Of a stretch of DNA of 64,000 nt, positions 27,501-33,500 are shown one piece after another. Every line of letters begins with the position of its first letter. Within the stretch, counting starts at the first letter, position 1. The DNA comes from Tubiluchus corallicola (taxonomy: Eukaryota; Animalia; Priapulida), in contig JAQGDQ010000212.1 in NCBI GenBank assembly GCA_030141605.1, positions 1 through 64,000 on the forward strand, read 5' to 3'. Position numbers and translations under genes: made by a program. Under the pieces are notes generated by a model. That model did not search any database. It was not told the origin of the DNA and saw only the letters and a list, made by a program, of their open reading frames with translations.

Positions 27501-30500
27501 AAATTTGCATTTTTATCTTAAAACTTGCCTAGTTTTAGTACAACTCACTGAATATCTTACATTAGCACATCATAATTTTCTGGAGAAATCTTGAACTTTC
27601 ATATTTCTGCTTCAGCTTTATTTACATTTTAGGTGATCAAACTTTACTTTTGCTTTTCTGGTAGAAAGGACCGAATGCAGTCATACCATTTGAAAAACTT
27701 AAACTTGAAATGAATAAAAAATGCGTGTGGTGATTTTGTTTCAAAAATTCGTGTTTTCCTTACAGATTTGATGAAGCGTGCATAGCAGCAGTCACTAGAT
27801 ATAAAGAAAATCACAGTGCGAGGTTTTCTAGGGTCTGTAATTAATCTTATGTTACCCAAACAAGCCACAATGAACACTAACATCTCGGTTTGCCGGACAA
27901 AAGCAGGGAGACTCGGACCGAGTTTGCCGATTGTCTGTATTTATTTATTGATACTAAGCTAATATAGTAGGCGCCATGTATTAGACTCATGGTAATGTAG
28001 AATCAGTTGCTTAATTGTCTCAAAAACGTCTAGTACGGGCCACTCCTATACAAAAGTATATAAAAACTGTCGGCAATTGACTCGAATTTAACTCCTTATA
28101 ATTGACTCTAGACCCTTACACATGCTGATTAACCCACTAAATACACCGACATATGAACTACAATACGTGTTGTTACACATTGCTTGGTTACACTGATGTA
28201 ATGATGCAAACAAAGTGACGGCCCGCCAACTAGTGGTCGGCTCGCGAAACAACTGACTGTGTCTGTAGTACAGTATCGGGTCTTTTTAAGGTCCAGATAT
28301 TGTCCAATTCTTACGATATCCGTAAAAGGAAGGTCCGGCAAACCCAGATAGGAATGTATCACAACATAAACATGACTCTTCCAATAACGAATATATTTTC
28401 ACCAGGCCTTAAGTTTTGATTAGTAATTTTATTCAGTGCTTTGTTGATTTATTTATTTATTCAACAATTTTATGCAATAAACTTTTTATATATACATATA
28501 TATATATGTATGTATATGCATGTGCATTTATGTATGTCCAAAAATTGTGTATGATATGTCTATAATGTGTATGATTTTGTAAATCTACTGTATATAATTA
28601 TATATATGTGTTTATAATTTTACCAATCTGTTGAGAGATATGTGTTGCAATAATTGTATTTTTAGCAGTAATGTTTCGTTTAATTATAACATGTTCTAAC
28701 AGATAAGAAAGACGCTATTGTCACTTAAAGACAAACCGGACAATTGATAATTTACAGTCCAAAATATTCGTGTTATTGTCTATAACAGTTACCAATTGCT
28801 TCTGATATTTGAATAACTACCTTGGAAGGTTAATTAATGGCAACCGAACACAGCTATTGTCCATACCACAAACAACGACAGTTTGTGCAATGATAGGCAT
28901 CTTCCCTTGTGCATCAAGAATGTTTGCGTAAGTGAAGATTGCTATAAGACATTGAGCTCTACGTGACACTGACATCACAGACGAACACTGGAGTTCATGA
29001 TCGTGCTTATCACGGTACTGCACCTGTTTGTTGGTCATGCGAATGTGACAAAAAGGCGGCATTGCCAGTCTTGGGGAATTCGCTGAACAGCGCATAGCTT
29101 TGAAAGTTGTAACAAAATTTAACTATCCGAGGAAATTATTATTTAATCTAAGTTTTGATTAAAGAAACTGCTGTAGTTTTCAATGTTTGTAAGCATTCTT
29201 TATTTTGAACTAATGTCTAGACAATCGTCCGGTTTTTATTTAACAGCTAATCGTCATAAAATAATTGATTTCCTGCCGCATTGTTTGTCGCAGACAGTAT
29301 ACGGCAAAGGTTCTTTTGCTAATCAATTGGATGAATTTTAATAGCAACAAAGGATTTATCTAGCTATCCATCTAAGACGGGCTTTGCAAAACCTATTTTG
29401 ATAGATGACATTACAACAATAGTTTACTTTACTAATATTATAGAAGTGTTTTCATTTAAATAATTCAGATATCCTTTCAGGTTGTTAACGATCTGAAATG
29501 GCAGCAGTGGAGAAGTCACGTTACCATGGCTACAGCTTCTTCCACGTCTCAACAGGTTTGACGAGCTATTGAAATAAGCCTCGGAGTATCTTTTGCAAAA
29601 ATGACGCTTTTGCATTTTTTTAAGTTTAAATATTGAGCTTTTAATTGGGAGAATATTTTACCAAACAGGATTAATTTTTCTGATTTGTTAAAGCGAAGAA
29701 AAGGGAATTTTAAAGCATTTCTCAAAAAAATTTCTCCATACGAAGTTATATTACTTTTCATTTTGTTTACCTATTTGAAAGACTTATAAATGTAATTGGA
29801 AAAGAAAATCAAAACAACATTTTTCAGCTTGATGTAGTAATACACTCATTTCTTGGTTTGCTGGACCTCGCTTTTACGGATGTGTGAAGAATTGGACAAA
29901 ATCTGTACCGTTAAAAAGCCCTGCATACTACGGACATATTCCGTTTTGCGAGCTAATTGCTAGTTGGCGGGCCGTCACTTGTTTAAAGCAGTGTGTAATG
30001 ACAGTTTGTCAGCATGTGTAAGTGGCTTAGAGTCAATTAAGCGGAGTTATTTGATTCAATTGCCGACAATTTTTATATACTTTTGCATTGGAGCGGCCTG
30101 TACTAGACGTTTTTGAGACAATTAGGCGATTGATTTTACATTACCGTGAATCCTATACACTGCGCCTACTATATTAGCTTAACATTGGTAAATACAGACA
30201 ATCCGCAAACTCGTGCCGACGTCTCCCCGCTTTTGTTCAGCAAACCGAGATATGAGTGTATTGTTTTTTGTGCTTTAGAAATGAAGTACTTTCTCTCATC
30301 ATGTTTTATGTTCATGTTTTCGACTCATTGTCTTGAGGATGGGAGAAAAATATTTAAGATAAAATTGGAAAATTTGTTTTATTACTGTGTCTTTATCATT
30401 TATTAATGTTTTTTAGCTTCACAGAATTGCACAACAATATAAGTAAATTGAGCATATACTGTTAATAATATTGTAATATTGCAGTGGTAATAAGAAATAT

Positions 30501-33500
30501 TATAAATAGTTTAACAGCTGTTAGATAAAGAGGAATTGCACTATGTGTGGTATATGTTACTGCTAGAAACTGCTCTCTTGTTTGTTATGCATTTTTGTTT
30601 TAAAATGTTATAATTTCTCCTTAATTTACTAGCCTATTATTCATGGACGTGTGATTAATGATCATCAACTGCAGATCGCGAATAAATCGCAACAAGCCCA
30701 ACAGGTGAGGACACGAGTACCGACTGAATCGTCTTCTGGTGTTAGTGTAGATTTGAAGAGGATACGCACTGTTTCAGCTAAGGGAGATGGTTTGACGTGT
30801 ATTTCTATACCTGTAAGTATTATTATTATTATTATTATAATTCTTTATTTTTAAAAAGTACAGAATACACTCCCTCTATTTGTAGGGATATGTTTCAAAT
30901 TTCTAAAAGCATTTACAAAGTCTTAAACATATTCACATACATATATAATTTAGAATCTAATACACGACAACGATCATATACAATACACATAGTTACAAAT
31001 TATAATCCAACAGTGCATACATACATAATAAACGATAACGAACATATTTTAATACTTAGTAACAAAAATTTACACACATTATACACAATGAAAAACAGCA
31101 AGTACAATTATAATAAACATAATTACCAATTCTAATGTAAATTCACATAATCATAAATAAAAAGAAAACAGCATATAGAAAACACGATGGGAGTTGTAAA
31201 AGTTCATCATCAACAGACTGTTTATATACGGGCAAAAGACGATAGGAATTCATCCGAGATAAGATTTGCAAAAGCATTTATAGCATTATTATCCCCGCTA
31301 GAGAAAACATAGTCCGAATCTAACGTAGGCAGAGTTCTAATAAAATCATTTCTTTTGCCTTGGTTTACTAATGTACATTCAAATAATAAATGATGTACAG
31401 ACTGAAGGCTCAATAAGCAGTTACATGTGCTATTAGGAGCCTGCCCAATTTTGTACAAAAATTCCTTAAAATTTTCCTGCTTAAGTAATAAACTGAAAGC
31501 TAAAACTTCTAATTTTCTCCTGCCCAAAGAGACAGGGAATTGCGTGGGCGTATTAAAAACTTTTATTGGGTGTATACTTGTGTTTATACATTGGTACTTG
31601 TGTAAGTATTAATTTAAACAGGAAGCAAAGGGACTTTTAGAGTACATACCAAAATTTCCAGACAAAGTAGTACTACTTAGCATTACATTTACCTGTTTGA
31701 AATCCTTGTGTAATTGCAAGAGAAAATTCTTAATAGTTTAAAATATCCACACCATTCTATTGCCATCCCAGTGTGCACCGGTGATTCACCAAAAAACAAT
31801 ATTTATCTTATTGGCAATATAATTTATACTTTTGCTTAATGTAGAGCTTTATGCAGTGTTTTCTAAATTATTTCAAACGAGTTACCATTAAAATGGCTGC
31901 GCCCAATGGTTATTAAGAGTTTAAATTTTATAGAGTGTTACTGCTAATGCAAATTCTCTATGCAATAAGACAGGATGTAAACGATATAGAATTTCATGAT
32001 GATTTTTTTAATTTTTTTTATGCAGAGTGTTTTATGGTGCTTTAAAGGAAAATGGGACCCAATTTTAGACTAGCAGAAAATGATTGAAACACTTAAAATA
32101 TTGAGAGGAAAAATATTTTTACTGCAGAAAATTTTAGATCATCATCCCAGTCATGCTCACGAAATTATAAGCCCAACAAAAATTTCAAATTTTTAATTGT
32201 GAGCTTTGAATTTGTCAATTTTTTGGGTTTTGTAGTCTAATTAATTTCCAGTGGCGGCTCAGAGCTAAAATTATTGGGGGTTCAAGGCCGGCTATACCAT
32301 TAGACAAGCTAGGCAATTGCCTAGGGTGCCATTTGGGGGGTACATGAAATTCTGGAAGTAATTCTTTAATTTTCAAGTTTAATATAAGTAATGGTGTATG
32401 CGTATGTGTAATTCCTTAAGTGCAGAACACTAATTAATTGAAACTAATTAGTTGCATTATTTTCTTGTCGAAATAAAAGGCTAAACGATACCAGTAAGTG
32501 TCTTCTAGTAGCAAAAAAACTCTATTTCTGCTTTATGTGGTTTCTTAAGATTACGTCATTTCTCGCAGACATTACTGATGCATTACCCTGCTTTTAACCG
32601 CAATTTCTATGTAAGTGCTGACAGAATGGTCCTTCCATTAATGAAAAATTTCTTACGATAGCATTTATCTAACTATGGCAGATAAGCCTATGAGAATCAA
32701 AGTCTGCAGGACAAAATGCAGGAAACGAAGGATAAAAAAGCTGGCGAGTCATACAGAGTACAATGGGGTTATGAATCCAACTTCAAATTCAATTAGCATT
32801 AGCTGTAGATAGATAATTAATTTAATTAACTATATTTAATTAATTATACTTAATTACTACACTATAATGCGTGCATTAGCTTAACGCGTATTATACTGTA
32901 TTATAATATTATACAGGTAAAATTCAATATTGGGAGCGTGGTGGGGACCATGAGGAAGGGGACGCCTTTGCCTAGGGCGCCATAACACGTAAAGCCGGCT
33001 TTAGAAAATCTTTAGCCATGGTTTTAATAGGCTGAGATATTTGAATATCAGGCGTCTTTTCTTAAAAGCATCTTTCTCATGGAGAGACAACTGTGAAAAC
33101 TTAAGCTGTCGAAGTTAACTTACAGTCACGGAACTTATTTCTTGGGGATGCAGGGAGGCCATGATTAAATTATTTGAATTTTAAGGACAAGACACATTGA
33201 GTCAGAATCTAATTCTACACTAAAGCATTCAAGAATATACCGGTACACGGTGGTTTTCGGACACGTGACAATTGACAACATACACTGTGTGAGCGACCGT
33301 GCTCTCTTTACCTAGAGTGTAGCATCTTATCTCAGACGTGTGCACACGGCCGCATGCGCACAGCAGCCAAACACACGTTGCTGGAGTTGTAACTGTACTG
33401 CGCTGGGCCTGTGAAGCGCACAGTTCCGTCACGTGCTCTGGATCCATACAAGTATAATCAAAGAATCAAAGAAAAAAGACAATTATGAATATTATGGATA

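What the first reader, a model, noticed from the sequence alone, without database searches (positions are those of the whole stretch)
29481..30674. Candidate U12/U2 splice-switch (poison isoform) autoregulating the minor-spliceosome gene CENATAC
Seen: exon 5 ends at a weak U2 donor (CAG|GTTTGA, 29556) whose read-through is GTT TGA, an immediate in-frame stop (29559-61). Exactly 30 nt later sits a U12-like donor GTATCTTTT (29586). The same intron ends with a U12-like branch motif TCCTTAAT (30618-25) directly before TAG (30630-32). I noticed no comparable donor-plus-branch pair in the other introns I delimited. Established: CENATAC is a minor-spliceosome component, and the U11/U12 proteins 48K (SNRNP48) and 65K (RNPC3) are feedback-regulated through U11-binding elements. 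From memory, U12/U2 site switching has also been reported for human CCDC84, which needs verifying. Inference: an active minor spliceosome would pick the distal donor and make a PTC/NMD transcript, while low activity lets the U2 donor make full-length protein. That would be a minor-splicing sensor in an invertebrate lineage. Caveats: the donor has one mismatch, and the branch A is only ~8-9 nt from the AG, shorter than the usual ~10-20 nt.
Basis: partly seen in the sequence, partly recalled or inferred. Interest (0 to 1): 0.82.

Follow-up and report, generated by a model that had tools for sequence, protein, structure and literature searches.

The report
CENATAC minor-splicing feedback switch beyond vertebrates
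In this invertebrate, likely a priapulid worm, the gene for a part of the minor splicing machine (CENATAC) has two splice donors 30 bases apart with a stop codon between them, the layout already published for the human gene, where it likely lets the minor machine turn down its own component; the same layout in a clam-like and other invertebrate loci suggests it is very old.

Summary
The gene is CENATAC/CCDC84. Intron 5 has a GTTTGA donor with an in-frame TGA, a GTATCTTTT donor 30 nt later, and a U12 branch motif 7 nt before the acceptor; it is 1 of 8 introns with both motifs. A close relative's protein uses the proximal donor. The mechanism is published for human CCDC84 intron 5 (PMC6800510, PMC8280824, PMC10853781), and this scan found it before in a ray and a shark. 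What is added is range. The published alignment I could read holds 43 vertebrates only. This genome groups with Priapulus, and 10 of 10 fetched loci holding exon 5 (one bivalve-like, nine from one other invertebrate clade) carry the second donor and branch motif, each predicted to give a premature stop. Both caveats weaken: GTATCTTT donors occur in listed human U12 introns, and relatives share the short spacing. Use of the distal donor in this animal is untested: no contig crossed intron 5. Verdict: real, known kind, likely as old as Bilateria.

The parts
24594..24776 (+). CENATAC exon 1 (coding part, first zinc finger)
   Evidence: Pfam PF14968 E 1.3e-7; matches P0005
25046..25212 (+). exon 2
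   Evidence: PF14968 E 1.8e-8; 91% to P0005
26961..27059 (+). exon 3
   Evidence: PF14968 E 2e-4; 79% to P0005
27766..27832 (+). exon 4
   Evidence: P0005 match; contig of run X1 joins it to 29481
29469..29477 (+). perfect A-type U12 donor consensus ATATCCTTT inside the intron 4 acceptor, directly after an AG; role unknown, not conserved in relatives
   Evidence: absent at this place in 10 of 10 related loci
29481..29555 (+). exon 5 (75 nt, phase 0 at both ends)
29556..29561 (+). proximal U2-type donor GTTTGA; productive; its bases 4-6 are an in-frame TGA
   Evidence: P0005 joins QQ to P with no insert; human GA|GUUGGUU, L006 GTTGGT, other loci GTTTGT
29556..29585 (+). 30-nt poison extension of exon 5 if the distal donor is used (Val then stop)
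   Evidence: use inferred
29586..29594 (+). distal U12-type donor GTATCTTTT
   Evidence: same variant in listed human U12 introns; GTATCC at 21-37 nt in relatives
30617..30625 (+). U12-type branch point motif CTCCTTAAT
   Evidence: TTCCTRAAY in 13 of 13 related loci with enough upstream DNA
30630..30632 (+). 3' splice site TAG, predicted to be shared by both spliceosomes
   Evidence: U2 use supported by P0005; U12 use inferred from human
30633..30812 (+). exon 6
   Evidence: 64% to P0005; X1 contig covers 30694-30803 without a joint
33618..33768 (+). exon 7 (GNxHSGxxPPW motif)
   Evidence: PF14968 E 4.6e-4
35130..35262 (+). exon 8 (WLPSFGRVW motif)
   Evidence: PF14968 E 6.4e-15
39364..39409 (+). 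exon 9 to the stop codon
   Evidence: tblastn with P0005

Best explanation
Intron 5 of this CENATAC gene carries a major-type donor, an in-frame stop, a minor-type donor 30 nt downstream and a minor-type branch motif, and it likely works as the same negative-feedback switch described for human CCDC84: the major spliceosome would make the full-length message, the minor spliceosome a stop-codon message predicted to be destroyed. Steps: (1) shown: U2 splicing 29555^30633 keeps the frame and matches a relative's 375-aa protein; the model gives 366 aa. (2) Shown by sequence: splicing 29585^30633 adds 30 nt that start Val-stop, giving 198 residues, with the stop 488 nt before the last junction and all conserved C-terminal motifs lost. 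(3) Inferred from human data and conservation: U11/U12 recognises 29586 and the branch motif and competes with U1 at the weak proximal donor for one shared acceptor. (4) Inferred: high minor-spliceosome activity lowers CENATAC, low activity raises it. (5) Inferred: the switch was present in the last common ancestor of bilaterians, and lineages have changed how the stop is reached while keeping the outcome.
For: Gene identity. Same intron number, phase and protein position as vertebrate intron 5 (rodent read-through models P0256/P0263 leave the frame at the matching residue). Human sites GA|GUUGGUU, CA|GUAUCCAA, branch TTCCTGAAT, CAG|CC; window G|GTTTGA, GA|GTATCTTTT, CTCCTTAAT, TAG|CC. L006 (bivalve-like) has G|GTTGGT, CT|GTATCCAAT 37 nt later, TTCCTGAAT 8 nt before AG. 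10 of 10 loci holding exon 5 have GTATCC 21-37 nt after the donor; 13 of 13 with enough DNA before exon 6 have the branch motif, while intron interiors align at background (0.30-0.43). First distal donor plus branch-proximal AG gives a premature stop in the window and in 10 of 10 loci, by stop codon or frameshift. Human switch measured, dual 3' site by CLIP, plant analogue tested.
Against: No transcript evidence for the distal donor in this animal. The branch-to-AG gap (8-9 nt) is under the 10-20 nt range quoted in PMC8199999 and 2 nt shorter than human; only L022 shares the 7-nt tail among the 10 loci. The window's donor deviates at +6, whereas human and the 10 loci keep C at +6 and deviate at +7 to +9, and a plain DNA alignment does not put the window's donors in register with the others, so homology rests on protein position and motif order. 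The 10 loci are three or fewer independent samples of deep lineages: L007 and L010 are identical and nine belong to one clade. The exon 5 queries came from motif-bearing loci, so a divergent locus lacking the motif could have been missed. Minor snRNA genes could not be checked in this genome.
Confidence: 0.82

Rival explanations
1. The U12 signals bind U11/U12 but are not spliced: binding would only hinder U1 at the proximal donor, giving retention of intron 5, which reads into the same TGA and would also be destroyed. Feedback is the same, the product differs (closer to a USSE-like element).
For: Short branch-to-AG gap. The stop sits at intron bases 4-6, so retention and distal splicing give the same protein. 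Five related loci have a second GTATCC 33 nt after the first (L007/L010, L020, L021, L022, L027), which recalls the tandem U11 sites of USSE (PMC8329584 passage).
Against: In human the distal donor is really spliced. A branch motif with an AG kept 7-8 nt downstream in 13 of 13 loci, even where the in-frame acceptor has moved 10-28 nt away, fits a used U12 acceptor.
Confidence: 0.1
2. Relic: an ancestral U12 intron converted to U2 by a new upstream donor; the old signals are decaying and have no regulatory role in this lineage.
For: U12-to-U2 conversion is a recognised route and twintrons have been read as intermediates (passage; PMC2831892 passage). The window's donor has a +6 change and the shortest spacing seen.
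Against: The same motif order persists in vertebrates, a bivalve-like locus, a third clade and this genome while intron interiors are unalignable; GTATCTTT is a normal donor variant, in 20 G-type rows (17 genes) of the 22 of 24 places shown from the human list.
Confidence: 0.06
3. Chance motifs in an AT-rich ordinary U2 intron.
For: One donor-like hit also occurs in intron 3; weak GT donors occur in introns 4 and 8.
Against: Joint chance 3e-5 to 1e-3 over the gene, at the very intron where the human switch lies, and repeated in 10 of 10 related loci.
Confidence: 0.02

Closest known systems
Human CCDC84/CENATAC intron 5 U2/U12 donor switch (Cologne 2019 PMC6800510; de Wolf 2021 PMC8280824 and its preprint; Kwon 2023 PMC10853781; review PMC8329584)
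   Same: Same gene, same intron number and phase; weak GTT-starting U2 donor upstream, non-consensus GT-type U12 donor downstream, U12 branch motif close to one shared AG followed by CC; U12 product has a premature stop.
   Different: Stop lies between the two donors in an in-frame 30-nt insert, whereas in vertebrates the stop falls in exon 6. Donor deviates at +6 rather than +7 to +9; tail after the branch 9-mer is 7 nt, human 9 nt. Host is likely a priapulid; the alignment in the preprint legend holds 43 vertebrates only. Extra ATATCCTTT before exon 5.
Plant TITAN-LIKE (TTL) AT-AC exitron feedback (bioRxiv 10.1101/2025.02.25.639993 passages; de Wolf preprint Fig. S10B legend)
   Same: Same gene family; minor-spliceosome action makes the unproductive message.
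   Different: There a U12 AT-AC intron lies inside a coding exon and retention is productive; no competing U2 donor.
USSE feedback in SNRNP48 (48K) and RNPC3 (65K) (PMC8329584 passages)
   Same: A minor-spliceosome gene down-regulated through U12-type 5' splice site sequences.
   Different: USSE is a tandem site that is bound but not spliced and activates an upstream U2 acceptor; the window has one GT-type site paired with its own branch motif.
U2/U12 twintrons such as Drosophila prospero and Urp/ZRSR2 (PMC2831892 passages)
   Same: Competing major and minor sites in one intron of an invertebrate gene; Urp is also a splicing factor.
   Different: Different genes; in the window one acceptor is predicted to be shared. 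The L007-type loci look like true nested twintrons.

Membership tests
CENATAC/CCDC84 orthologues | PF14968 match with two N-terminal zinc fingers and conserved C-terminal motifs | tested here: met
   5 of 8 exon translations hit PF14968, 3 above the curated cut-off; invariant C/H, PPW, GP, RVG and WLPSFGRVW columns in a 31-protein alignment led by the relative P0005
CENATAC intron 5 U2/U12 switch | Position: phase-0 intron after the short coiled-coil exon 5 | tested here: met
CENATAC intron 5 U2/U12 switch | Upstream U2 donor gives the full-length frame | tested here: met
   P0005 aligns to exon 5 and exon 6 end to end with no insert; P0005 is from a relative, not this genome
CENATAC intron 5 U2/U12 switch | Downstream U12-type donor and U12 branch motif near the acceptor | tested here: met
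   consensus comparison only, no PWM score computed
CENATAC intron 5 U2/U12 switch | U12 product carries a premature stop well upstream of the last junction | tested here: met
   TGA 24 nt before the distal junction, then exons of 180, 151 and 133 nt
CENATAC intron 5 U2/U12 switch | Both donors used in vivo | tested here: inconclusive
   1 run listed; no contig crossed intron 5
CENATAC intron 5 U2/U12 switch | Ratio responds to minor-spliceosome activity; product is an NMD target | not testable with these tools
   needs knockdown and NMD-block RNA-seq
U12-type intron | Branch point 10-20 nt (best 11-13) from the 3' splice site | tested here: inconclusive
   8-9 nt here; 9-10 nt in 9 of 10 related loci, 8-9 in L022; 8-nt tails in listed human introns ODR4 and EXOSC9; range from PMC8199999
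U12-type intron | Minor snRNAs present in the genome | not testable with these tools
   no genome held; no Rfam hit in the window; Priapulus caudatus has 330 minor introns (PMC10639083 passage)
USSE (48K/65K type) | Tandem U12 5' splice sites that are not used as donors | tested here: not met
   single GT-type site in the window; tandem copies only in some related loci

The most novel reading that the evidence does not exclude
This lineage has a double sensor: besides the inherited GT-type poison donor after exon 5, the perfect AT-type donor at 29469, laid over the intron 4 acceptor, lets U11 either block exon 5 entry or splice an AT-AG intron to the same branch point. Because CENATAC is selectively needed for AT-type introns, this would be a CENATAC-specific feedback arm in an animal, like the plant AT-AC exitron, on top of a switch kept since the first bilaterians.
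Probability: 0.1. Interest if true: 0.65.

Novelty: new member of a known kind. Interest (0 to 1): 0.36.

Why it matters
The human switch is one of few known cases where the two spliceosomes compete for one acceptor. Finding the same motif order in a likely priapulid, a bivalve-like locus and a third invertebrate clade would date it to the bilaterian ancestor. The way the stop is reached differs by lineage (stop between donors, frameshift, or a separate upstream acceptor ending in an in-frame TAG), which argues that the unproductive outcome is what selection keeps. It also offers a ready junction-ratio reporter of minor-spliceosome activity in invertebrates. The mechanism itself is not new.

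Tried and rejected
No whole genome is held, so snRNA genes and genome-trained U12 matrices could not be examined. The run search listed no run on record as RNA; one guessed-RNA run with the same species label was added. Its contigs are 89-96% like the window's exons, bridge exon 4 to exon 5 at 29481, stop at 29553 and resume at 30694; none crosses intron 5 at 85% or 80% likeness. That blank is no evidence on donor use, and I drew nothing from the contig ending 2 nt before the donor. A search for short, truncated homologues (possible poison-isoform products) found 0 of 5 candidates. Rfam found nothing in the window. The final EMBO J Appendix (file s009, Fig. S9) is too large to read; searches of the other supplements for the switch text gave nothing, so its species list rests on the preprint legend and could be wider in the final version. 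A first search for the donor variant in supplement 5 found none; supplement 1 holds the donor column. My first motif scan required T at +7 and missed the relatives' donors; reading L006 and L013 led to the wider scan. The idea that cnidarian GILQNP codons hide a U12 donor as in the plant exitron was not borne out in the 3 of 5 intronless contigs where the motif was found. De novo DNA alignment of the donor region did not align the window with the relatives. For the extra tandem donors in L039 the motif check was unreliable; stops were still predicted.
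Full report
Observation. Exon 5 is 29481-29555. 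The intron starts GTTTGA, so read-through is Val-stop (TGA 29559-61). GTATCTTTT starts at 29586, 30 nt further. TCCTTAAT is at 30618-25 and the TAG acceptor at 30630-32. Of the gene's 8 introns only intron 5 has both motifs; intron 3 has a donor-like hit alone. The joint chance in a Markov background from the gene's introns is 4e-6 (strict) to 1.4e-4 (loose) per intron, with motif classes set after seeing the site.

The gene. Five of 8 exon translations hit Pfam CCDC84. A 375-aa Logan protein, P0005, from a close relative matches all nine exons at 64-91%. It joins exon 5 to exon 6 with no insert, so the proximal donor and the 30632 acceptor give the full-length frame. A contig of run X1 confirms the exon 4 to exon 5 junction at 29481. 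The model has 1101 coding nt, 366 aa. P0005 groups with Priapulus caudatus at 96/88 support in a 27-protein tree and 98 in a quick tree, so the animal is likely a priapulid, distinct from P. caudatus (39% identity). This rests on one fast-evolving protein with one priapulid in the set.

Predicted poison product. Use of the distal donor adds 30 in-frame bases, stops after 198 residues, 24 nt before the new junction and 488 nt before the last one. It would lack all C-terminal motifs; loss of the last two disables the human protein (preprint passage). NMD is inferred from the usual junction rule (own knowledge).

What is in print. Cologne 2019 (PMC6800510, passages): human CCDC84 uses U12 sites for PTC transcripts and a U2 donor with the U12 acceptor for full-length protein, about 65/35 in controls and 15/85 in TALS cells. 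de Wolf 2021 (PMC8280824, passages) calls the competing sites conserved 'in animals' and an autoregulatory circuit; the preprint legend says vertebrates, 43 species, stop in exon 6, and a plant exitron version. The final Appendix could not be read. Kwon 2023 (PMC10853781, section 16 and supplement passages) shows U2AF1 and ZRSR2 both at this acceptor and gives the human sites. A review (PMC8329584, passages) names intron 5. An Arabidopsis preprint (passages) supports feedback through the AT-AC intron of TTL. Four searches for CENATAC/CCDC84 with U12, autoregulation, invertebrate or Drosophila terms (listings only, apart from the papers named) showed no report of the switch in invertebrates; subscription papers are not covered.

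Conservation outside vertebrates. A scan of metagenome contigs gave 42 loci. Ten hold a recognisable exon 5, and 10 of 10 have GTATCC 21-37 nt after a GTTGGT or GTTTGT donor; 14 hold exon 6, and 13 of the 13 with enough upstream DNA have TTCCTRAAY followed by AG 7-8 nt later. The other 28 loci are intronless contigs, too short, or too divergent for these queries. L006 groups with venerid and mactrid bivalves (89) and has nearly the human signals: G|GTTGGT, CT|GTATCCAAT, TTCCTGAAT. The other nine (eight distinct; L007 equals L010) form one clade, 68-92% alike in exon 5, placed weakly among lophotrochozoans. Intron interiors align at background level. So three invertebrate lineages, not eleven independent cases, support the layout.

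The outcome is kept, the route varies (all predicted from DNA). Window: in-frame 30 nt with the stop inside. L006: 37-nt frameshift, shared acceptor. L007-type clade: the branch-proximal AG lies 10-28 nt before the in-frame acceptor, so the U12 intron would be nested in the U2 intron; the product is frameshifted (5 loci) or in frame with a TAG (4 loci, two identical). In all 10 loci and the window the first distal donor gives a premature stop.

GTATCTTT occurs 24 times in the human U12 table; of 22 places shown, 20 are G-type donors in 17 genes, including VPS35, ZPR1 and ODR4, the last with GTCCTTAAT and an 8-nt tail. Some entries of such lists may be misclassified. The branch spacing is below the quoted 10-20 nt but only 1 nt shorter than in 9 of 10 relatives, equal to L022, and 2 nt shorter than human. 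Both caveats lower, but do not remove, doubt about actual splicing.

What is not shown. No contig crossed intron 5, so use of the distal donor is untested. No genome was available to look for minor snRNAs; the presence of CENATAC itself, which co-occurs with the minor spliceosome, and 330 minor introns in P. caudatus make their presence likely.

An extra site. ATATCCTTT at 29469-77 is the only perfect A-type donor 9-mer on the + strand and overlaps the intron 4 acceptor. A 150-nt stretch of background holds RTATCCTTT with chance 0.00075 (after the fact), but about one copy is expected somewhere in 64 kb, the site is missing in 10 of 10 relatives, and both X1 and P0005 use the 29481 acceptor normally. 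It is most likely incidental; it is the basis of the novel case.

Verdict. A real, orthologous copy of a published autoregulatory switch, now seen in protostomes. New member of a known kind; interest 0.36.

Noticed in passing
window 29467-29480: Perfect A-type U12 donor ATATCCTTT directly after an AG and 12 nt before exon 5; the upstream AG could also be an in-frame alternative acceptor adding four codons.
   Followed up: partly
L007/L010 128 and 161; L020 1483 and 1516; L021 6756 and 6789; L022 675 and 708; L027 2227 and 2260: A second GTATCC donor 33 nt after the first, each preceded by a copy of the GGTTTGTCA stretch: a tandem U11 site that recalls USSE. L039 has the exon end plus donors in three copies (2428, 2494, 2564), real or an assembly effect.
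   Followed up: partly
L007 1110-1151 and the same place in L013, L015, L019-L022, L027, L029, L039, L042: In this clade the branch-proximal AG and the in-frame acceptor are separate (10-28 nt apart in the loci computed), so the shared acceptor of human seems to have become a nested twintron.
   Followed up: partly
window 30705: A strong in-frame U2 donor CAG|GTGAGG inside exon 6 could shorten the exon by 36 codons; the one contig covering it reads through.
   Followed up: partly
P0018 and P0256/P0263 (named vertebrate gene models): Xenopus and marmot isoform models read through the U2 donor across the U12 donor, a protein-level trace of the same layout in annotations.
   Followed up: no
P0017, P0039, L001-L005: Cnidarian-like CENATAC proteins carry a conserved middle block (QNPxGxH..RVW.GG) absent from the bilaterian rows, and one is called whole on a 389-kb metagenome contig, which hints at an intronless gene without the switch.
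   Followed up: partly
window 20636-23656: Trypsin-like serine protease exons ending under 1 kb before CENATAC; the last exon adds a Cys-containing linker, a long Glu/Asp-rich repeat and a Cys-rich tail.
   Followed up: no
window 47872-48177, 56265-56483, 59003-59263 (minus strand): Exons of a receptor tyrosine kinase domain of Trk/ROR type (label from recalled motifs, no call tested it).
   Followed up: no
window 4298-4912: Exon resembling a polysaccharide/chitin deacetylase C-terminal region (label recalled, not tested).
   Followed up: no
window 34070-35045 and 36110-37100: Tandem repeat arrays inside CENATAC introns 7 and 8, and a long GA microsatellite at 35320-35760.
   Followed up: no
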